From Lytechinus pictus (taxonomy: Eukaryota), in NCBI RefSeq assembly GCF_037042905.1, contig NC_087245.1:20834001-20898000 (forward strand): DNA of 64,000 nt. The letters are read 5' to 3'. Below the pieces are notes generated by a model that saw nothing but the letters and a program-made list of their open reading frames with translations, ran no database searches and was not told where the DNA came from. This document shows positions 6,706-59,182 of the stretch, one piece after another. The number at the start of each line of letters is the position of its first letter. Position 1 is the stretch's first letter. A program made the translations under genes and the position numbers.

Positions 6706-6945
6706 CATGGTGGTAGTGGTTCTGACTTTAACCTTCTATAATCAGAGGGTCGATGGTCGAATCCCACTGCGGCACAAACATCCTTTGAAAAGAAGACGTC
6801 ATTTTATACTATAGCATGTTTTAAACTGTGCCCAAAAGTGAACGTCAGTTGTCAGTGTCTTGAACGCTCATTTTGCTGGATTACTCCTCAGGGAGTGAAG
6901 TATGTACATGATTATATGGGCAAGATAAATACCGATCAGCGAAAG
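6706..6945 (+). mobile_element. Degenerate tRNA-derived SINE 5' part, apparently interrupted by the foldback element
   Basis: ggtagtggtt...aatcagaggg...ggtcgaatcccac resembles the head of the SINE at 1459. A (tat)n tail follows the foldback at about 8758-8770. Confidence 0.55.
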
Positions 6946-6955
6946 CGACAAAACG

Positions 6956-8689
6956 CGGGCCCGGCCGCGAAATTATTTTTCCCACCGAGTTCTGGACCAA
7001 CATATGAATATTCATGACTTGCGTCTTCGGATTGAGAGTACGCATGCGCGTGGACTTTGCCTCGACCAGTGCCGATCGTAAGCATTCACGTTGCTCAGAA
7101 TGAATTAGCATCGTCAAATTACCGGTACCCTTACATAGTTACATAGGTCTTATAGGCTTAGATCTATATATATATATATATATCCAATTCTTAAACACTT
7201 AATAAACTAGCTGCCATTAATGGCAAGACATGTGCTAGGGTAGGGCTAGCTTAGGCTAGCGCATTAACTTTACCTCAAATCTGGACCTGTCTAATGCCTA
7301 ATACTAATAGGAATAGCCGACTAATGCCATGGTTAACTTCGAACTGGTTAATTCCGAACTTCACGTTTAATTAGGTTTAGACAAATGTTAGCTTATTTGC
7401 CATGGTTTAATATGTCTAGTCCGTATACAAAACCAGTCCTAGATCTAAAAAAAAATTATCTTATATAGTTCTAGTCTAGTCTCTATATCTAGACTCTGAT
7501 CTACGCTGTATCAGCATGGAACCAGTAGTGTACCAAGGGTGGGGGGAAGACTGTCCCTCTGACGAGTCACAACTGATTCAGGGGACGTGCCCCCTTTGAG
7601 AAGCCATATTAATAATTTGTAATGTAAAAATGCAATGAAAAAGACGTATGTCCCCTTTTTTTAACGTGAAGATCTTTTTTTTTTTTTTTTGCTTGTCAAT
7701 TTTTTTTTCAGCTAAGAAATCCATAATTTGGGGTGAATACCCTTTTTTTTTTTTTTGGGGGGGGGGCTTGTCACATTTTTTCGCGGACGAAATATCCTCT
7801 AAAAAAATTGCCCCCCTTTTGGAAAATCCTACGTACACCAGTGCGTGCATAGAACGTATTCTAACGTCAGGCACAAATTAACGTCAGTGATCTTGATCCC
7901 CGTCTTCACCCAAAATTAAGGATTTCGTAGCTGAAAAAAATTTGACAAGAAAAAAAAAAAGATTTTCACGTTCAAAAGAGGGGACATACGTCTTTTTTCG
8001 TTGCATTTTGACATTACAAATTATTAATTTGGCTTCTCAATGGGGGGGGGGGGCACGTCCCCTGGATCAGTTGTGACTCGTCAGGGGGGCAGTCTGCCCC
8101 CCCCCCCCCTTTGGTACACTAGTGGTTCCATGCTGATAGCGCGTAGATCAGAGTCTAGATCTAGAGACTAGACTAGAACTAAGATATTTATTTTAGATCT
8201 AGGACTGGTTCTGTATACGGACTAGACATATTAAACCATGGCAAATAAGCTAATATTGATCCAAACCTAATCAAACGTAAAGTTCGGAATTAACAAGTTC
8301 GAAGTTAACCATGGCATTAGTCGGCTATTCCTATTAGTATTAGGCATTAGACAGGTCCAGATTTGAGGTAAAGTTAATGCGCTAGCCTAAGCTAGCCCTA
8401 CCCTAGCACATGTCTTGCCATTAATGGCAGCTAGTTTGATAAGTGTTTAAGAATTGGATGTACTGTATATATAGATCTAAGCCTATAAGGCCTATGTAAC
8501 TATGTAAGGGTACCGGTAATTTGACGATGCTAATTCATTCTGAGCAACGTGAATGCTTACGATCGGCACTGGTCGAGGCCAAGTCCACGCGCATGCGTAC
8601 TCTCAATCCGAAGACGCAAGTCATGAATATTCATATGTCGGTCCAGAACTCGGTGGGAAAAATAATTTCGCGGCCCGGCCTCGCCCCTA
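6956..8689. mobile_element. Foldback non-autonomous DNA transposon, ~780-bp inverted arms, 10-bp flanking direct repeat CGACAAAACG (AcademH- or Mutator-like)
   Basis: 6956-~7737 is the near-identical reverse complement of ~7906-8680, with a ~170-bp spacer. CGACAAAACG occurs at 6946-6955 and 8690-8699. The right end is ...CGCCCCTA. Confidence 0.88.
7523..7843 (-). mobile_element. Nested hAT-like MITE inside the foldback (same family as 21592-21830)
   Basis: Ends cagtagtgtacc / gtacaccagtg. The reverse complement of ttgccccccttttggaaaatccta matches taggattttccaaagg..gggcaa at ~21604. catggaac / catagaac may be a degenerate 8-bp TSD. Confidence 0.7.
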
Positions 8690-8776
8690 CGACAAAACGT
8701 CCTCGACTCTTCTGGCACAAGACCGACCTGCTTTGTGTGAGTGGAATACTATTGCCATTATTATTATTATCTAGTC

Positions 8777-11603: not shown

Positions 11604-11699
11604 ATGTCGGCTATGTATGGAGGTGGAGGTGGGGATGAGGTGGTAGTAGCTGGTAGCTCAGCTCTCTACAACAAGCTAGGATTAACCAAATCTGAAGAG
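11604..11699 (+). CDS. Candidate first coding exon of an unidentified gene (32 aa: MSAMYGGGGGDEVVVAGSSALYNKLGLTKSEE)
   Basis: ATC-ATG start with A at -3; stop-free, protein-like 96 nt ending at the donor GAG|gtaatg (phase 0); preceded by ~350-500 bp of unique, GC-richer UTR/promoter-like sequence. Confidence 0.65.
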
Positions 11700-13632
11700 G
11701 TAATGTCTTTGCTTTTACCATACTGAAAGGAAACACAATGAGCCATGTCTTGGGAAAATATTTCTATTCATTTTCTGCTAAAAATTATGGTCCTCTGCTT
11801 TTGACGAGTACACGTACTCTGTTAACTACATATGTGTATGTTTCTATACTAACTTTACGTGCTCTGAGGGGTCAAGTGTGATCTTTAAAAAACATTTTGG
11901 TAATTTAGAATAGTGGTTTGTTGCAAAGCCTACGTGAGATTAGTTTGTTTGATAATGAAATATTTTATCTACAATAATTATATCCATGATAGCCACTTAC
12001 GTAGCTGATATTCCAGTGGGTAGTGCATATAGCTAATGTCATTAAAATCTTATCCATATTCTCATACACCAAGAGCCGGGGAAGAAGGTAGGCATTTAGA
12101 AACTTCTACTTTAAAACGATGTCGTTTATCTCTCAAGACCAAGTCATATTAAGTTTGAATAAATTTAAAGTCGAATGGGCGATGAGTACCCTGGAATCTT
12201 TTCGGAATTAAAAATTTATTCTAATAAGTATTAATAATTACCATGAATTTACATAATCGTTCCAATATTTGTACAAACTATTTTTACGCGTTTGTCATTT
12301 CACCGTGCAAAATGTAAAATGAATATCAGATGTTAATATAATTATGTTTTTATTGCGAGCTGTAAGAAATGTATCACTCCGCAATTGCCGGATTGAAAAG
12401 TAGGTGATAGAATCTTGTTTGCTGATAAACCAAAGAAATCTGCAAATATAAATGTCAATCACCATAATTTGCCGAATAGTATTGTTTGTCACATGACCGT
12501 CACAACTACATTTTTATTTCTACTACAAGAGAGAGCGAGCTATCGACAAAAATGAATATTTTTTCTGCATCTTTCATTGCTAGAAAAAGATTGATTACGG
12601 CCTCAAACCGATTTTGAAATTACAGACGAAAACTCAGAAATTTAGATAAATATAGATTATTGTGAAGCTACCTAGTATAGTTGAGCGCATTCTATGAAAA
12701 GGAAACTTTCTTTAAAAAAAAAGGGGGGGGCTTTGGACATGATCTTTTCCGCCCCCATTCGCCAGAACAAGATATTTCAATGTATATTCATGATGACCTA
12801 TGTTACCTTTGATACTTGATCTTGATACCTCTAAAATTAGTTTGATCATCGTCATTTTTCAGTTACGAATATACTTGTAAGAGATACCTGCAAAGATCAT
12901 ATAATAAAAAAAGAGAATACTGAATTAGATGATTGTTTTAGAAAGAAAATACAAGCGTATATCAGAGTAGTTAAGATTAAATAGATAAAAATGTCATTAA
13001 TTCTAAAATTGAAGAGAATAAACACATGAGAACACGAGGTATGATCTATGTTTTTACTTTTAAAAGGCGTACACTCTCAAAATATTGAATAAAATGTTTT
13101 ATTATCTAGCTGGCAAAGAGGGAATACCTATGTTTGTTTTGTCAGTGAAAAGCAATGTTCCATTGGTACGAACTTGCGTGAAATTGGCAAAGAATCTGCC
13201 AATATTCTACCTTCAAAACATGAACCTTTAAAAGAGTATACGGAGATGCTGTTCACGATGGGCTTTTAGTGCACTCCTTCCTTTTATTATATGGCTTACA
13301 TGACAGTCTGCATTGGGAGTTTATTTTATTTAGTGATATTTTGTTCAGAGTGTTTTTCCATTATGACTTCAATCGTATAATGTCTAACATTCATGCATTT
13401 TGAAGGAAACAAAAAATCACTCGTCACCTCACAGTGCGAATTATAAGATGCAATGATAAGGAACTAATATGCGTAAATACATTACCACAGCAGATGTCAT
13501 TGTATATAGATTGGCCCATAGATGGACAATTTCATACATTTTTATCAAATGGATCGGGAGGGAAGCCTCAAGGTATCTTTCATGTAAAATCTCAAATCTG
13601 TAAAGTTTATGCACTCCACACCGTCTAGACAC

Positions 13633-26063: not shown

Positions 26064-26420
<357 letters not shown>

Positions 26421-26670
26421 GTTTGTGATAACTGTGTTAATGACGACACATTTTACTTTGTTTTTGCACTTCTATAGTCGCCATTAACGATGTGCTGGAC
26501 GTCTCTGTGAATGAGCTAGGTAGACTTTCTCCGACTTTCCCGCTTCGGAGCTGACAAATTTCATGGTTAAGTTCGCAGTATGGTGATTCCTCATTATCAT
26601 GTCTAATCAGTGTCTGTAAATTGAAGATAATCATTTCTTTGTTCAAAATACAAAATAACGCCGTTTTTAG

Positions 26671-26783
26671 TTATTTAACTTGTAATTTCATTCTTTTTCT
26701 TCTTTTCTTTCCGATCACTATGGTTGTGCCTGCCTTGCCCTCGCGTTGCCTTCGCCTTGATACCAATCAACCAATAGGTAAGT
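26671..26783 (+). promoter_or_regulatory. Candidate recursive splice site 1 (zero-length exon TAG|GTAAGT at 26777/26778)
   Basis: No AG in 26671-26775; pyrimidine tract at ~26686-26712; UGC-rich block; then caatcaaccaatag|gtaagt. Confidence 0.6.
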
Positions 26784-28383
26784 CATGCGTAATGTTATAA
26801 TAGAAAAAAATATCATAAGGCCATATTTTGTTATTATCGAAGGTGAAGAGGTATTTATGTATTGATTTCCAAATAATTATGTTAACGATAACAGGAATGT
26901 TGATTATGCGTAAATGTGCATATATTATGTGTGCCTATATTATTCTTAAGGCGAGGAAAAGACTGTACACTGCACTCGGAAGAGTTGCAACAAATTCTTA
27001 GATTATAAATATGGGTCGGAAATGGTCTGATAAAACCATCTTATTAAAATTTACGATGATGGTAATGGGTGTTGTTTTTAGCGACATGTATTTCCAATCA
27101 TCATGAACCCTGCATTTTGTACTGCATTGCTATTAATTACACATGTGGCACTATAGGAGCAAACATCTCTGGACATTCATTTTTTCCTCTGTAAAATCTA
27201 AGTTTAATTTGGCCGACTATAGAAATCATTCACCTATTGTCTGATAGCGCGTGGAGGGGGGGGGGCAATTATTTTCTACCTAAACATATAGGTCATTTAT
27301 AGTAATGAAAGACTTTGCTCCCACCCCTTAACTGCACTCATACCCACCCCCCCCCCCCCCGAGAAGCCCTTGATCGACCGCTAATTAGGGATTCGGTTCG
27401 TCATTTGTTTTGCACTTCAATCACCCATTTTAACATTGTTTGGACTGCGCACACTAATTTCGAAAAGGTCTTGTTCGCTTCGCCGCGGAGGCGGTTGAAA
27501 TTGTCGGCTAGCTTCATTACGAGTTTACCTTGTTAATCCGTCAATCTTTCGAGCTGAACTTAGGAGCTGATGAAAGACGTCGAAGGGCGACCATGTTCGT
27601 ACGGTGCGCACACGTTTCTCTGCATTGCAGAAATCACTTATAGGCTAAAACTGTTAAATGAGGCGGGATATGTAAGGATACATTCATCAGTTTATTCGCG
27701 GTTAGATCTGTGCATTATGTAAGAATACCAATCCGTAAGTGTGATAATATCATACTAGTAGGCATATTCATAATCCCTTTTTTCTTCTGTCACAAATAAC
27801 GCCAACTGTCGATCATGTCAATATATCTGCATGAAGACAAAAATGCCTAAACCCTAGGACAGCCGACACAATGCGTGTATCATTTTACGCCAAGTATATT
27901 CTAACGCAGCGGCTTTTTGAGAGCACCTAGATATACATATTTTAATGTTTGATTCATCATTTAGTTTGCTAGAAGTATGTAATTTAATTCATAGTGACCG
28001 GCTGATCTTAATATTCGGTGATATAAGAAATGATGGGGGCAGCCTCAATTTCCCATCAAAACGGTTTCGGAACTCTTCTTATTTTTGTTGTTGTTAGATC
28101 AAACCTTTTCTAACCTTTTTTGTTAAGAATGATCTGATATTTTATCAGGGCTGTGAACAAAAATAAGAATAGAAATTGATTTGATGCTGGAGTCATTCTT
28201 ATTCTCCCATCAAAAAAATATGCCCTCCATCTCCAATATTTTTTGTTTTATTTATTTATTATTATTTTTTTTTGTGGGGGGGGGGGCTATCACCCTATAC
28301 TAGTATAAGATCAAGTCGTTACTAACAGCGATCTAGGGTAGATATGGAAGTAGCCTACACGATGAGTGAGTTATTGAGTTGTA

Positions 28384-42398: not shown

Positions 42399-42503
42399 TG
42401 TAACCTTATATTTCATTTTATTGTATTTTCTTTCTCTTCCTTTTATGTCTTCTTGAAATCGATGTCTCCTTTCACCACTGTACAACTAACCAAATAGGTA
42501 AGT
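42399..42503 (+). promoter_or_regulatory. Candidate recursive splice site 2 (zero-length exon TAG|GTAAGT at 42497/42498)
   Basis: No AG in 42399-42495; pyrimidine tract at ~42425-42474; caactaaccaaatag|gtaagt. Confidence 0.6.
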
Positions 42504-47252: not shown

Positions 47253-48379
47253 AAATCTTTACTTCTCATTTTCCCTTCCCCTTTCTTCATTATATTTTAT
47301 TAGTAGATTTCTACCATTCTCTTCCTAGTCACCCACCTCTGGCTCCCCCTTCACCCCTCCTCCCTTGACTTCTGGTCTGCTCTCCCCTTTACCATCTCCC
47401 ACTCTCCCTCATTCTCTACCTCTTGACACCTCCCTTCTCCGTCTTCATTTAATATCACATAAAATGTACCTTCTATGGCGTGCTCCCAAATCATATTCAC
47501 TTGATTTCTTACTTATTTATTTTATTGACATTCATTTATTCATTAAGAAATCAATACCGGTTCTAGATAGTGGAAATATGAGTACTTGAGCATGCTCACC
47601 AATTACGTTATCAGTGTTTCATTTGGACAATATTTGTCAAGCTCATTGACGACGTGGTAGACCCACTTCACGCCAAAAGAATAAAAATGCTTATTTTGCT
47701 GCACTTCGCTTTCCATACCTCAGACGACTATTTCGCAATACCACACACACTGTTTTGATAGTCTGCTAGGTCCGTTATGTTTTTTGAAGACACATTTTTT
47801 TCCCCTACCTTCTTTTCATATCTCGAACTTTTGTGGATGAATGGAGCGGAAAGTCGGTATAGTATTTCTCGGCTCATCGGCTGAGTGAACTCAGGTACAA
47901 TCTTAATTTTCCGACAGGGTATTTATAAACGACAAAAGCAGGCTTGCGATTTGCAAAGGATGAATGAGGTTTCAATCATAATTTCGATGCATGGTTGGGG
48001 CGATATCGATATTAGTCTGGTCTGTTAGCGGAATTATGTGGACACGGTGGACAAAAGCATGATTTTTTCTCCAGACCTTTGTTTATGTATGAGAATTAAA
48101 AATGGGGTATGCTCCAAAAAATCTGGCTGCAGGAACAGTGAAAAAATGGGTGAAAATGTCAGAATTTATGAGTTTAGATTGGTCTGATATATAGACTAGC
48201 GCTAGTGCAAAACTCAATAGCAGTGCATTATTTTGCATTGGTTTAGTTCTTGAATTCAGACCCTTTTTGAACAGATATTCTGTTTGTCCTCACATCTCAA
48301 TGCACTAAATATCTGAATGCAGATGCTAAACAAGCCGAAGGGTGGTGATGGAGGGGGTTGAATGTTGGTGTGTATGTAC

Positions 48380-49000
48380 ATATTTTGGTCTTGGGGTAAA
48401 GATGTGCAAGGCATATTTTTTTGCATGTGTTGGAAATTGTGTTGCCATGGTAACAGTGTATTATGGCAAAAATAAGGTACAAATCTTGCAGTTAGAACTA
48501 CTTCCTCTGTTGTCACCCGATTCTCATGAAATTTGGCACACACATTGGTCTTGAGGTGAAGATGTCTAAGACACATTTTGTGTGTCTTTCAAAAATCTTG
48601 TTACCATGGTAACAACATATTATTTGGTGAAAATTGGGGAAAAAATTACAATTCAAACTGCTTCATCAGTTTTAAATCAATTCTCATGAAATTTGACACA
48701 CACATTGGTATTAGGGTAAAGATGTACAAGGCACTATTTGTATGTGTTTCATAAATTGTGTTGCCATGGTAACAACATATTATATGGCAAAATTTAGGTA
48801 AAAACCTTGCAATTTGAACAACTTCATCAGTTTTGAACCATTTCTCATGAAACTTGGCTCATACATTTGCTTTGAGGTAAAGATGTGCAAGAACCATTTT
48901 ATGTGTGCATTTGTCAGAGTATATTGCCATGGTAACCACATATGATAGCCAGAAATGCAGGAAAATTCATTGTGGATCAAACAACTTCCCCTTTTTTTAG
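48380..49000 (+). repeat. Tandem ~160-bp subrepeats in the left foldback arm (mirrored at ~51800-52400), each with GTTRCCATGGYAAC
   Basis: Motif at 48441, 48600, 48760 and 48923 (variant); tctcatgaaa(t/c)ttg and ggt(a/g)aagatgt recur with the same period. Confidence 0.88.
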
Positions 49001-51710: not shown

Positions 51711-52799
51711 TTAACACTGAATGTGAATCTTTACCCAAAATTAATATTTGTGTAAACTTTTCTGAGCACAGGCTGAAAACTGAGAAGTAGATTGATCCAC
51801 AATTGATGAGTTTTCCCTGCATTTCTGGCTATATGTGGTTATCAAGGCAATGCACTCTCTGACAAATGAAAAAAAAAGGTTCTTGCACATCTTTATCTCA
51901 AGGCCAATGTGTGAGCCATATCATGCATGATAATTGGTTTGAAACTGATGAAGTAGTTCAAATTGCAAGGTTTTTACCTAAATTTTGCCATAAAATATGT
52001 TGTTACCATGGCAACACAATTTATGAAACAATCACAAAAAGTGCCTTGTACATCTTTACTTTAATACCAATGTGTGTGCCAAATTTCATGAGAATTGATT
52101 TAAAACTGATGAAGCAGTTTGAATTGTAAGGTTTTTTCCCCAATTTTCACCAAATGTTATGTTGTTACCATGGCAACAAAATTTCCGAAAGACACACAAA
52201 ATGTGTCTTAGACATCTTCACCTCAAGACCAATGTGTGTGCCAAATTTCATGAGAATCAGATGAAAACAGAGGAAGTAGTTCTAACTGCAAGATTTGTAA
52301 CCTTATTTTGCCATAATACACTGTTACCATGGCAACACATGCAAAAAATGTGTCTTGCACATCTTTACACCAAGACCAAAATATGTACATACACACCAAC
52401 ATTCAACCCCCTCCACCGCCACCCTTCGGCTTGTTTAGCATCTGCATTCAGATATTTAGTGCATTGAGATGTGAGGACAAACAAAATATCTGTTCAAAAA
52501 GGGTCTGAATTCAAGAACTAAACCAATGCAAAATAATGCACTGCTATTGAGTTTTGCACTAGCGCTAGTCTATATATCAGACCAATCTAAACTCATAAAT
52601 TCTGACATTTTCACCCATTTTTTCACTGTTCCTGCAGCCAGATTTTTTGGAGCATACCCCATTTTTAATTCTTATACATAAACAAAGGTCTGGAGAAAAA
52701 ATCATGCTTTTGTCCACTGTGTCCACAAGTAGGGTGTTTTTGACGCTAACAGACCGGACTATATCAGCAGTGCGGTGTGTAAACAGTACTAGTAAAGCG

Positions 52800-53131
52800 A
52801 AACTTTCTTTCACATGCGCCTGAGCGAGTGAGCTGTGACTGCGATGGATTTCAGAGTGATTAGATAAAGTCCTTGATGAAGTTAAAGATTGTAACCAGGA
52901 TCCCTTTTCTAGTCACGGATTTCTATCGGATTAAAGTCATCGCAAGACGTTATTTTTCTTGGAGGTATAGACAGCTAAGTAAAAATGTTCCCAGCAGCGA
53001 CCGTGATAGGACGGTCGGACTACTCGTCCCACGAGCGCCTGGACCGCCCGCTATCCAAGTCGGGAAATTCGCAGTGTCATACACCTTCGCATCAAAGTGA
53101 TCGAAATCTTCATGTTCTTTCAGATGGGCAG
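52800..53131 (+). other. Candidate alternative first exon (or 8-nt microexon 53124-53131) with donor CAG|gtaagt
   Basis: CpG-richer unique segment ending in ttctttcag ATGGGCAG|gtaagt; the start coordinate is approximate. Confidence 0.5.
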
Positions 53132-54076
53132 GTAAGTTTCAGTTCAGTATTTTAATTAAAGTTTTGCATACAGTTTACAGAATGATTTAAAGAGAAGAGT
53201 TCTATCAAGTAAATCAAGTTCAATTGACAAAATCCGGGGGGGGGGGGGGGGGTCACAAGGGTTGCACACCCCCTCTAACTCGCCATATTGAGAATTGCTC
53301 GTTGAACATACATATCGATGTAACTACATCTAAGAAAATTGTTATCTGTGCTTCATTTTATTTCCAAATGTGCTATTTGTGCCTCTATTATTTCCAAATC
53401 TTTGATTCACCACTGCAAATACTAATATATCCTGCATATAATTTGCCAAATAAACTGCCATGGCTGTTGCCTTCACCTCACAAGATCCTAGATGTGTGTT
53501 TGAGAAGATGGGTGGAGGGTATGTATGTGCAAAAAAACAACAACTGGGCAACATAGATTATGTAGAGTTTAAGGATTAATGTAGGAACTAACTACTAGGC
53601 ACGGAATTAACAATAATAATAATACAAAAATGCATTTAAGGTCTACCATTTTCTAACAAAATGATGAATTAGGAATCAAACAAGATTGATTTCTGTTAAG
53701 CCATTCTAGTGTAAATCAGTTACATTGCAGTCATCATGTGATATATAATTTCAGTCCTTTTGAGTTACATGTACTTTTGAATGAAATCCTGGTGGATGCA
53801 TTTTGAGCCTAAAATGGTTTTGGGACATATGAACCAGTATCAAACAATGAGAAGTCAATGAAATGTATATAAGCAGATTTGACAGTCTCTCTATTGGGAA
53901 GGACAAGTAATCAAGATCCCCTTTTTTTAAAGTTTCATTGGACCATTATTGGTTACATAAGTTTCCCACCCCACTACTCTCTGTTTCCAAATGAAATTTG
54001 ATCTAGTTGGACAAGAATAGAAGAAGAAAAATGTGTCAACTGGTATTTTGGGGAAAGATAATGTCAAGAATGTGAA

Positions 54077-54513
54077 ATATTTGCAAGAAATATGTTTGAA
54101 TGATGAAATATAAAATGCAATCGAAAAAATTGGGATTTGACAATGCTCCAGATTAAAATGAAACATCACCCTAACAAAATCCAAAGGCTCTACATTAAAT
54201 ACAAAAGTCAGTTGTGATTAGAGACTGTTTTAGAGTACCCCACTGGATGACAGTACAATGATAATGACAATAATATCAATTAACAATTGACATTTGACAT
54301 ATTTGCAAGAAATATGTTTGAATGATGAAATATAAAATGCAATCGAAAAATTGGGATTTGACAATGCTCCAGATTGAAATGAAACATCACCCTAACAAAA
54401 TCCAAAGGCTCTACATTAAATACAAAAGTCAGTTGTGATTGGAGACTGTTTTAGAGTACTCCACTGGATGACAGTACAATGATAATGACAATAATATAAA
54501 TTAACAATTGACA
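54077..54513. repeat. Tandem direct duplication of ~215 bp
   Basis: 54077-54292 and 54299-54513 differ at only a few positions; 6-bp linker tttgac. Confidence 0.95.
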
Positions 54514-56650: not shown

Positions 56651-58010
56651 TTAAGCATTGGAAAATCTAAAACTTCATTTTCAAAGGAAATTATAGTGTA
56701 TCTTAAAATACAGGTTGCTGGAATGAAATGAGTAAAATTTTAAATCAAACATCAATTTTGCCTCCCTGACTTTTAAAGTAACTCTTGCCTTCTGGTATAA
56801 AACAATTTTTATCCAGGATTTTGAAATAGAGGAGGAACAAATGATAATTTTCTTAGATATAGCTATATCAATATATATGTCCCTTGGGCAATTCTTAAAA
56901 TAAGGAGGGGGTGTGCGCTACTTGTGCTCTTGCCTGGATCTGCCACTGTAATAATAATAATGCAATTATTTCTATAAATAACTTTTTAAAAGTGATAATA
57001 TGAGTTTACAATCAGAAGAGTGTTTGAAGGATGTTTAACTGTCAAATTAAAATTTTCATTTTAAAAATCAGTCAATGAAAAAATATATGCTCAGGGCTAC
57101 AATTTTGTACGATAAAATATAGAAGCTTTAGTCATGCTTTGATGACTGAAGGATTTGATACAGGACACCGGAAAATGCATCCCCGATTAAGGATTTGGGA
57201 AACAAGAGTATTGTGAAAAAGTTGAAGCCATGTTTACTGCACAGTGCCCTTGAACTTTAATGTTACCCCTTTCCCATTTGAAATAAATGACCAAATCAAA
57301 TCAGTAATATAGAATCTTCTTTATCACATTACTGCTCTTAGGTTGGAGTAATGAAAATCGCATACATTAAACGTTAAGGGTCTCTCTCTCTCTTTCCTCA
57401 AATCCCGGTATTGCTCCACCCAAACGTATTCCACCACGTAATGCTGCATTAATATCAGGTAATTCTGATACAGGGGAACTACGTGGACGGTTACCTTTTA
57501 ATTCAATCAAAATTGTCCCAGTTGATTAAAAACCTGGTATTGAGATGCACAGAGCAGTCTATCTGTATAGAGCTATATGCATACCTTTCATTTGTTATGT
57601 ATGCAGGCCTATAGCCTCAGAGAAAGTGACAAGCTGTGCTCTGCCCATACAGTAATAAAATATGTTTTAGTCCTTACCATTCAATTTAAGTATGAAATTT
57701 CAATTGGAAGATTGACAAGGATTTGTATTATAGGTCAAGTTTCAAAGTCAACTTACTGGGTATGTACTTGCTAAATTTGGGTGATAAAAAAATTCAGTAT
57801 ATATTGTACATGCTTCTCATTTTAGAGGTTGCAATATGCTATTGAGTCTAAAGACGAATTAGATAAGAGATGTATTCTGTCAGATGTTTCTCAAAAGAGA
57901 TAGAAGAAACCTTCTTGGGGCAGAAATTCAGGAGCTTGTGTCTTGATAGATTGTCATAGCCATATTTTTGCTTCAAAGTTAAAATTATTGTTTTCTAATT
58001 TACTTGATAA

Positions 58011-59104: not shown

Positions 59105-59182
59105 GGAACCTCTGGAGCTGCCGGGACCTATGCTCGCATGAGAGCAGGATCCGTTCCGCATTCAGCATTGGGCGACTCCACG
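59105..59182 (+). CDS. Candidate internal coding exon (78 nt; phase 0 reads GTSGAAGTYARMRAGSVPHSALGDST)
   Basis: Acceptor tactcttccag and donor ACG|gtaagg; sharp GC-rich island in AT-rich flanks; length is a multiple of 3; in frame with the 11604-11699 exon. A second frame (NLWSCRDLCSH...) is also open. Confidence 0.65.

What the first reader, a model, noticed from the sequence alone, without database searches (positions are those of the whole stretch)
26671..26790. Ratchet site 1 has microexon-like acceptor architecture with a UGC cluster
Seen: the pyrimidine tract sits ~65-90 nt upstream. It is followed by gtgcctgccttgccctcgcgttgccttcgcc (four UGC, several YGCY), then A/C-rich accaatcaaccaatag|gtaagt. 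Established: a displaced pyrimidine tract with UGC motifs near the 3' splice site marks SRRM3/4-dependent neural microexons, and YGCY clusters bind Muscleblind. Inference: this zero-length exon may be defined or regulated by the microexon machinery.
Basis: partly seen in the sequence, partly recalled or inferred. Interest (0 to 1): 0.7.

Follow-up and report, generated by a model that had tools for sequence, protein, structure and literature searches.

The report
Likely recursive splice site, displaced tract
A fused intron-end/intron-start signal with its helper signals set unusually far upstream lies inside what is likely a 47-kb animal intron and probably lets that intron be cut out in steps; the UGC cluster beside it is real but is probably not what defines the site, because its sister site has none, and no RNA data could be examined.

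Summary
TAG|GTAAGT sits at 26777|26778 behind a 105-nt AG-free zone, with a pure pyrimidine run at -87..-66 and UGC at -51, -47, -42 and -31. A sister site at 42497 has the same layout. Two of 13 similarly built acceptors in the window carry GTRAGT, against about 0.004 expected. The two sites cut the inferred 47.4-kb intron into 15.1/15.7/16.6 kb (P about 0.002). Recursive splicing through a distant branch point is the best reading.

The microexon-machinery inference is weak. Site 2 has no UGC in its AG-free zone, the nearest UGC is 31 nt from the AG, and the cluster is only modestly unusual for the spacer's composition (P 0.04 to 0.5). The same layout also fits distant-branch-point exons, where UGC clusters repress (Tpm1 exon 3). 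The site fails the fly ratchet consensus (TT at -5/-6). No RNA run, genome or orthologous intron was available, so use of the site is not shown.

The scan noted this displaced-tract layout before at other loci of this genome. Verdict: new variant of a known kind, moderate interest.

The parts
11604..11699 (+). Coding part of the upstream exon of the host gene (32 codons, phase-0 donor GTAATG at 11700); gene not identified
   Evidence: Translation; one 46-aa relative, P0001, 84% identical over 31 residues, whose likeness stops at the same codon
26675..26679 (+). Candidate distant branch point TTAAC, A at 26678 (-100), at the 5' end of the AG-free zone
   Evidence: site 2 has TAAC at -95; use not shown
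26686..26712 (+). Displaced pyrimidine tract (pure run 26691-26712, -87..-66)
   Evidence: (20 of 20 pyrimidines at -85..-66)
26713..26777 (+). 65-nt AG-free spacer between tract and acceptor, 52% GC against 39% upstream and 31% downstream
26726..26756 (+). UGC/YGCY cluster: four TGC, five YGCY; no second copy of this segment in the window
26757..26761 (+). Candidate proximal branch point TTGAT, A at 26760 (-18), with no tract after it
26760..26774 (+). A/C-rich stretch before the AG (13 of 15 A or C; 1% of AGs reach this; site 2 has 12 of 15, 3%)
26775..26783 (+). Fused acceptor/donor TAG|GTAAGT, candidate ratchet site 1
26778..26842 (+). Possible downstream cryptic RS-exon of 65 nt (donor AAG|GTGAAG; alternative 73 nt, GAG|GTATTT), with an in-frame stop at its fifth codon in phase 0
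   Evidence: simple consensus matching only
42399..42503 (+). Sister site 2: 97-nt AG-free zone, TAAC at -95, tract -71..-52, A/C-rich end, TAG|GTAAGT at 42497|42498, no TGC in the zone
59105..59182 (+). Candidate next coding exon, 78 nt, open in phases 0 and 1; its link to the upstream exon is inferred
   Evidence: no homologue found

Best explanation
The TAG|GTAAGT at 26777|26778 is likely a recursive splice site (zero-length exon), the first of two that would cut an inferred 47-kb intron into pieces of about 15-16 kb, and it is predicted to work through a distant branch point and tract rather than through its UGC cluster. Shown in the sequence: the fused signal, the 105-nt AG-free zone, the tract at -87..-66, the sister site, the spacing. 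Inferred steps: (1) U2AF and U2 bind the tract and the TTAAC at -100 while U1 binds the GTAAGT 65 nt downstream, so the spacer gives the exon-sized distance that a zero-length exon lacks; (2) the upstream exon's donor branches at -100; (3) the second step takes the first AG downstream, the one at 26776-26777, as at distant-branch-point exons; (4) ligation to the upstream exon, which ends in AG, recreates a consensus donor that is spliced on to site 2 and then to the next exon. The mRNA is the same as after one-step splicing. The UGC cluster is probably spacer content, at most a local modulator.
For: Composite rarity: 2 of 13 qualifying YAGs are followed by GTRAGT, about 0.004 expected. A strict composite occurs 3 times on the sense strand of the intron and 0 times antisense; 1 of 200 block shuffles had one and none had two. 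Segments of 15,078/15,720/16,607 nt, P about 0.002 against two random points. Both sites share TAAC at -95/-100, a displaced tract, an A/C-rich end and AATAG|GTAAGTC. The upstream exon and its donor position have a relative. Branch point and tract at the 5' end of a long AG-free zone with use of the first AG is the established distant-branch-point mechanism (PMC1431707 passages). Fly kuz has two evenly spaced ratchet points in a 50-kb intron (PMC8605326 passages). [quoted passage not shown]
Against: No junction, lariat or sawtooth data. Thresholds were set after seeing the sites; a looser composite gives 4 sense against 1 antisense, and 14 of 200 shuffles reach two or more. The intron's 3' end is inferred: if it ends at the AG at 53123 the spacing P rises to 0.033. 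The site breaks the fly consensus: CA, not TT, at -6/-5 (196 of 197 fly sites have TT), and neither candidate branch point lies in the -36..-21 range. The last 15 nt form a poor acceptor. A textbook acceptor at 26477 could use the same donor as an ordinary 300-nt exon. Long AG-free zones alone are common here (43 of 3,482 AGs on the + strand reach 90 nt).
Confidence: 0.55

Rival explanations
1. One reading: the site is a recursive site that needs the microexon factor (the eMIC isoform of Srrm234) bound at the UGC cluster, so the intron would be ratcheted here only or mainly in neurons.
For: Order tract - UGC - AG, long AG-free zone, weak proximal acceptor and strong donor match eMIC targets. 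The cluster is one of 2 in 128 kb of both strands. A weaker third site at 57458 has a UCUC-type tract and TGC at -17 and -14. eMIC acts through U2AF and SF1, the factors that a displaced tract would need.
Against: Site 2 has the same layout and no UGC. Nearest UGC at -31; no UCUC in the tract; P 0.04-0.52 given the spacer's composition. Extra UGCs mostly lowered the SRRM4 response, and shortening lowered it too. Fly recursive splicing is described as constitutive. A zero-length exon leaves no trace in the mRNA, so what regulation would achieve is unclear (inference).
Confidence: 0.12
2. The site is a recursive or distant-branch-point acceptor that Muscleblind (at the YGCY cluster) and PTB (at the tract) can shut off, as at Tpm1 exon 3.
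For: Tpm1 exon 3 has a branch point, an associated tract and then a UGC cluster nearer the exon that binds MBNL and represses; two or more YGCY are needed for high affinity (PMC3643581 passages). Five YGCY lie here in the same order.
Against: None of the five is the preferred UGCU. Five YGCY arise in 13% of dinucleotide shuffles of the spacer. Site 2 has none in its AG-free zone. Tpm1 exon 3 is a real exon with elements on both sides.
Confidence: 0.06
3. 26778 is only the donor of an ordinary exon: a 300-nt poison exon from the acceptor at 26477, the 107-nt exon from 26670, or an alternative first exon, possibly coding from the ATG at 26720. The 'UGC cluster' is then exon sequence.
For: The acceptor at 26477 has an adjacent tract and branch-like motifs at -38 and -23. 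The spacer has exon-like GC (52%). The ATG at 26720 has A at -3 and G at +4 and opens 19 codons to the donor, with a PxxPxR-like stretch (motif name recalled). The candidate exon at 59105 is open in the matching phase 1.
Against: The 300-nt and 107-nt versions carry stops in phase 0, and the 107-nt one has a weak acceptor and shifts the frame. A phase-1 coding first exon would conflict with the phase-0 upstream exon if both join the same exon. Site 2 has no ATG in its open phase. An open phase 1 arises in about half of shuffles at each site. This reading leaves the AG-free zones, the tracts and the even spacing unexplained. A search with the 40-aa frame found no candidate among 22-70 aa proteins (low power).
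Confidence: 0.17
4. The site is unused sequence that happens to resemble a splice signal, or the remains of a dead exon.
For: No RNA or conservation evidence was obtained; the DNA is rich in pyrimidine runs and long AG-free zones; the acceptor's last 15 nt are atypical.
Against: Two near-identical composites, both on the gene's strand and evenly spaced.
Confidence: 0.1

Closest known systems
Drosophila intronic ratchet points (Ubx, kuz RP1/RP2, Bx; Duff et al. 10.1101/006163, Joseph et al. PMC8605326, Pai et al. PMC6110457; passages read)
   Same: Fused AG|GT with a consensus donor deep in a long intron; two evenly spaced sites in a 47-50 kb intron as in kuz; a weaker donor 65-73 nt downstream of site 1 that could bound a stop-bearing cryptic exon.
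   Different: Fly sites have a prominent tract at the AG, TT at -5/-6 in 196 of 197 and branch points mostly at -36..-21. Here the last 15 nt are A/C-rich, the tract ends at -66 and the best-placed branch point is at -100. Site 2 has no good downstream donor within 238 nt.
Distant-branch-point exons with AG exclusion zones (Gooding et al. PMC1431707; passages read)
   Same: Branch-like motif and tract at the 5' end of an AG-free zone of about 100 nt; the acceptor is the first AG downstream; regulatory elements often lie in between.
   Different: Those are real, mostly alternative exons; here the AG is followed at once by a consensus donor.
SRRM3/4- (eMIC-) dependent neural microexons (PMC8797185, 10.1101/2024.09.17.613571, PMC12871342, PMC5247714; passages and named sections read)
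   Same: Long AG-free zone, displaced tract, weak proximal acceptor, UGC between tract and AG, strong donor.
   Different: No exon body; displacement about twice the vertebrate median; nearest UGC at -31; no alternating UCUC in the tract; the sister site lacks UGC.
Rat Tpm1 exon 3, MBNL/PTB repression (PMC3643581; passages read), and the tropomyosin zero-length exon of Grellscheid and Smith 2006 (seen only as cited in PMC2773006)
   Same: Branch point, long tract, then a UGC/YGCY cluster before the acceptor.
   Different: A coding, mutually exclusive exon with silencers on both sides; the YGCY here are UGCC/CGCC only.

Membership tests
Drosophila-type ratchet point | Juxtaposed AG|GT with a strong donor inside a long intron | tested here: met
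   TAG|GTAAGT, 6 of 6 intronic donor positions; 47.4-kb intron with an inferred 3' end
Drosophila-type ratchet point | Prominent tract next to the AG, TT at -5/-6 | tested here: not met
   CA at -6/-5, 13 of 15 A/C at -18..-4; fly 196 of 197
Drosophila-type ratchet point | Branch point at -36..-21 | tested here: not met
   YTNAY candidates at -100, -88 and -18 only; prediction by motif, no lariat data
Drosophila-type ratchet point | Downstream cryptic RS-exon with a weaker donor | tested here: inconclusive
   Donors at +65 (7 of 9) and +73 (6 of 9) for site 1; none reaching 6 of 9 before +239 for site 2 (crude score)
Drosophila-type ratchet point | Junction reads, lariats or sawtooth coverage; conservation of the site | not testable with these tools
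   No run was listed, no genome is held, metagenome scans were empty
SRRM3/4 / eMIC neural microexon | A short exon (about 3-30 nt) in the mRNA | tested here: not met
   No AG between 26671 and 26775, so length 0 with a canonical acceptor; no convincing U12 pair was seen among motif hits
SRRM3/4 / eMIC neural microexon | Long AG-free zone, displaced tract, strong donor | tested here: met
SRRM3/4 / eMIC neural microexon | UGC between tract and AG, close to the AG | tested here: inconclusive
   Four UGC lie between tract and AG, nearest at -31; the published distance distribution is in a figure that is not held
SRRM3/4 / eMIC neural microexon | Tract with alternating UCUC | tested here: not met
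   None in 26686-26712 by reading the sequence
SRRM3/4 / eMIC neural microexon | Neural-specific use that depends on eMIC | not testable with these tools
   Needs tissue RNA and perturbation
Distant-branch-point acceptor | AG-free zone of 100 nt or more with branch motif and tract at its 5' end | tested here: met
   105 nt; TTAAC at -100, tract from -92 (definition)
Distant-branch-point acceptor | The distant branch point is used | not testable with these tools
   Needs lariat mapping
MBNL-repressed acceptor (Tpm1 exon 3 type) | Two or more YGCY between tract and AG | tested here: met
   Five YGCY, none UGCU; 13% of dinucleotide shuffles reach five
MBNL-repressed acceptor (Tpm1 exon 3 type) | Matching UGC and pyrimidine silencers downstream | not tested
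   No systematic scan downstream of the site

The most novel reading that the evidence does not exclude
This animal defines zero-length exons in a way not described in flies or vertebrates: a 50-65 nt AG-free 'ghost exon' lies upstream of the fused signal and supplies exon-definition spacing between U2AF/U2 and U1, and factors bound in it (eMIC/Srrm234 at this site's UGC cluster) decide whether a given ratchet step is taken. The microexon programme would then control the path and speed of long-intron removal without changing the mRNA, and exons that lose their acceptor AG would be a source of ratchet points. The upstream-spacer part is more likely (about 0.35) than the eMIC-gating part; the probability given is for both.
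Probability: 0.12. Interest if true: 0.8.

Novelty: new variant of a known kind. Interest (0 to 1): 0.42.

Why it matters
How a spliceosome recognises an exon with no body is only partly settled: flies use a strong adjacent tract and a hidden downstream exon. If these sites are used, they show a second solution, with the signals moved 65-100 nt upstream, in a lineage where recursive splicing has only been predicted by motif counts in the papers found. A pair of sites in one intron, one with and one without a UGC cluster, is a ready-made internal control for whether microexon or Muscleblind factors act on ratchet points.

Tried and rejected
RNA evidence: no RNA holder was listed for 26450-28350, so no reads were laid; this blank is no evidence either way. 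No whole genome is held. Metagenome scans: a 24-base stretch starting at the donor had 0 matches; the upstream-exon alignment gave 162 pattern matches, none confirmed. Gene identity: no hit for the upstream exon among 71-2000 aa proteins (9 candidates), for the exon at 59105 (27 candidates), in Pfam (4 peptides, 0 families) or in the Atlas (best 0.84, unnamed); only P0001, unnamed. The spacer frame had no candidate. RNA structure: no stable fold at either site (z from -0.61 to +1.38 over five stretches), so a hairpin that brings the tract next to the AG was rejected. U12 reading (CCTTGAT at 26755, AC acceptors): such motifs are scattered on both strands (12 on +, 12 on -) and the upstream donor is of the ordinary type; rejected. 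Common descent of sites 1 and 2: likeness is confined to the signals (by eye, no significance test). Repeat origin of the UGC segment: no second copy in the window at 23 of 39 identities or better. Open phase-1 frames at three sites: about 0.55 x 0.46 x 0.48 by shuffling, not significant. Earlier notes near this place, for relatives, and for the words on a lost acceptor: nothing. Literature: searches listed no paper with experimental recursive splicing in sea urchins or linking SRRM/eMIC to ratchet points; most listings were seen only as title and abstract start, and subscription journals are largely missing. No supplement was read; those of the bioRxiv papers are closed and may hold UGC-to-AG distances.

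Full report
Setting. The window is AT-rich animal-type DNA with many microsatellites and no long real ORF. A coding exon at 11604-11699 ends in a phase-0 donor. One unnamed 46-aa protein, P0001, is 84% identical over 31 residues and its likeness stops at the same codon, which supports the exon and the start of the intron at 11700. The next clear exon candidate is 59105-59182 (78 nt, open in phases 0 and 1). That the two are joined is inferred; the gene was not identified. Earlier AI notes call this genome a sea urchin's; I did not test that.

Observation. With the G at 26777 as -1, the site reads: previous AG ending at 26670; TTAAC with A at -100; pyrimidine tract -92..-66 (pure from -87); a 65-nt spacer with TGC at -51, -47, -42, -31 and five YGCY; TTGAT with A at -18; 13 of 15 A/C at -18..-4; TAG|GTAAGT.

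Is the layout more than chance? Of 5 AGGTRAG on the + strand and 5 on the - strand, two stand out by AG-free zones of 105 and 97 nt: 26776 and 42496. Of 3,149 YAGs on both strands, 13 have a zone of 90 nt or more with a 20-mer of 19 or more pyrimidines; 2 of the 13 are followed by GTRAGT, against about 0.004 expected. A strict composite occurs 3 times sense and 0 times antisense in the intron, and in 1 of 200 block shuffles once and never twice; a looser one occurs 4 times sense, once antisense, and twice or more in 14 of 200 shuffles. All thresholds were chosen after seeing the sites. The two sites divide 47,405 nt into 15,078, 15,720 and 16,607 nt (P about 0.002; 0.033 if the intron ends at 53123). 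A third, weaker site at 57458 lies 14,961 nt after site 2.

Is the UGC cluster special? It is one of two such clusters in 128 kb of both strands, and 0.7% of 60-nt windows hold four TGC. But the spacer is GC- and pyrimidine-rich, and four TGC arise in 3.8% of its base shuffles and 52% of its dinucleotide shuffles; five YGCY in 13%. The dinucleotide null is conservative because it keeps TG and GC counts. The strongest internal control is site 2: same branch-like TAAC (-95), displaced tract (-71..-52), A/C-rich end and fused signal, and no TGC inside its AG-free zone. The layout therefore does not require UGC. Neither site folds better than shuffles.

Mechanism. A branch motif and tract at the 5' end of a long AG-free zone, with the first downstream AG used in step 2, is the established distant-branch-point mechanism (PMC1431707, passages). 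Applied here, U2AF/U2 at -100..-66 and U1 at +1..+6 are 65 nt apart, an exon-sized distance, and the first AG after the branch point is the one inside the donor consensus, which gives a zero-length exon. Ligation to the upstream exon, which ends in AG, would recreate a full donor for the next step. All of this is inferred. The idea that the spacer stands in for an exon body was prompted by an earlier AI note (e1-7810230) on acceptor-like triplets at tract ends; here the tract is followed by GATCAC at site 1 and ends in AT at site 2, which is compatible but not a test. A fly-type downstream cryptic exon is also possible at site 1 (donors at +65 and +73, stop in phase 0), but none was evident at site 2.

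The microexon reading. eMIC targets in flies and mammals have long AG-free zones, long UCUC-rich tracts, strong branch points and UGC close to the acceptor (PMC8797185, passages; 10.1101/2024.09.17.613571, passages and section 10). Site 1 meets the general order. Against it: no exon body; branch distance 100 nt against a median of 45-47 nt (PMC12871342, abstract, section 20 and passages); nearest UGC at -31, while the 3'-most of seven is decisive in protrudin (PMC5247714, passages); no UCUC; added UGCs and exon shortening both lowered the SRRM4 response in the reporter study. For it: about a quarter of SRRM3/4 microexons lack UGC, that study notes that it under-samples microexons with long distances, and the site at 57458 has a UCUC tract with TGC at -17 and -14. 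The same order of elements with a repressive UGC cluster bound by MBNL is known from Tpm1 exon 3 (PMC3643581, passages), so the motif does not point to one factor or one direction. PMC11701043 (passages) added no distance figure.

Ordinary-exon rivals. A stronger rival is the textbook acceptor at 26477, which would give a 300-nt exon with stops. An alternative first exon from the ATG at 26720 gives 19 codons in phase 1, which conflicts with the phase-0 upstream exon if both join the same exon; site 2 has no such ATG. None of these explains two AG-free zones and the even spacing, but only RNA can exclude them.

Comparison. It likely works like a Drosophila ratchet point (10.1101/006163, PMC8605326, PMC6110457; passages), and kuz offers the same geometry. 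It is not a member by the fly sequence rules: TT at -5/-6 (196 of 197) and branch points at -36..-21 are not met. Motif counts had already shown an 8.2-fold sense-strand excess of RP-like sites in large sea-urchin introns, scored with the human consensus (PMC2773006, passages with Table 2). Searches listed no experimental study of recursive splicing in sea urchins and no link between eMIC and ratchet points; the library lacks most subscription papers. Earlier AI notes of this scan describe the same displaced-tract sites at other loci of this genome; they are unchecked leads and not counted as evidence.

What could not be done. No RNA run was listed, no genome is held, and two metagenome scans found nothing. 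Use of the site, the branch point, tissue specificity and conservation all remain open.

Verdict. Observation confirmed; recursive splicing in some form about 0.73 (0.55 UGC-independent, 0.12 eMIC-dependent, 0.06 MBNL/PTB-modulated); ordinary exon donor 0.17; unused 0.10. New variant of a known kind; interest 0.42.

Noticed in passing
window 57381-57464 (+): Third fused signal CAG|GTAATT at 57458 behind a 78-nt AG-free zone, with a UCUC-type tract ending at 57399, a 59-nt spacer and TGC at -47, -17, -14; 14,961 nt after site 2 and 1,646 nt before the exon at 59105. The spacer is open in phase 1 and proline-rich, and the tract ends in CA followed by A where an acceptor would have G, so it could also be a small exon that lacks its acceptor. 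It fits the microexon motif layout better than site 1.
   Followed up: partly
window 52750-53137 (+): CpG-rich stretch ending in a strong donor at 53132; either an alternative first exon or an 8-nt exon (53124-53131) after TTTCAG. Its ATG frame would stop inside the exon at 59105 at a TGA that overlaps an in-frame ATG.
   Followed up: partly
window 26450-26477 (+): Textbook acceptor with adjacent tract and one TGC at -13, right after the (TGA)n array at 26064-26421; 300 nt upstream of the site-1 donor.
   Followed up: partly
window 27250-28000 (+): CpG-rich stretch just downstream of site 1; it holds an acceptor-like TTTCTCTGCATTGCAG ending at 27630 and a GTAAGG at 27672, a possible 41-nt exon with two UGC next to the AG (by eye).
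   Followed up: no
window about 6880-7560 and 8000-8690; about 47990-49000 and 51750-52730: Two pairs of long inverted copies (the first gives near-identical translations on opposite strands; the second holds 160-bp tandem units). The second pair lies inside the inferred intron and could form a long stem. Limits read by eye.
   Followed up: no
window 54073-54513: 221-bp tandem duplication, 97% matches.
   Followed up: no
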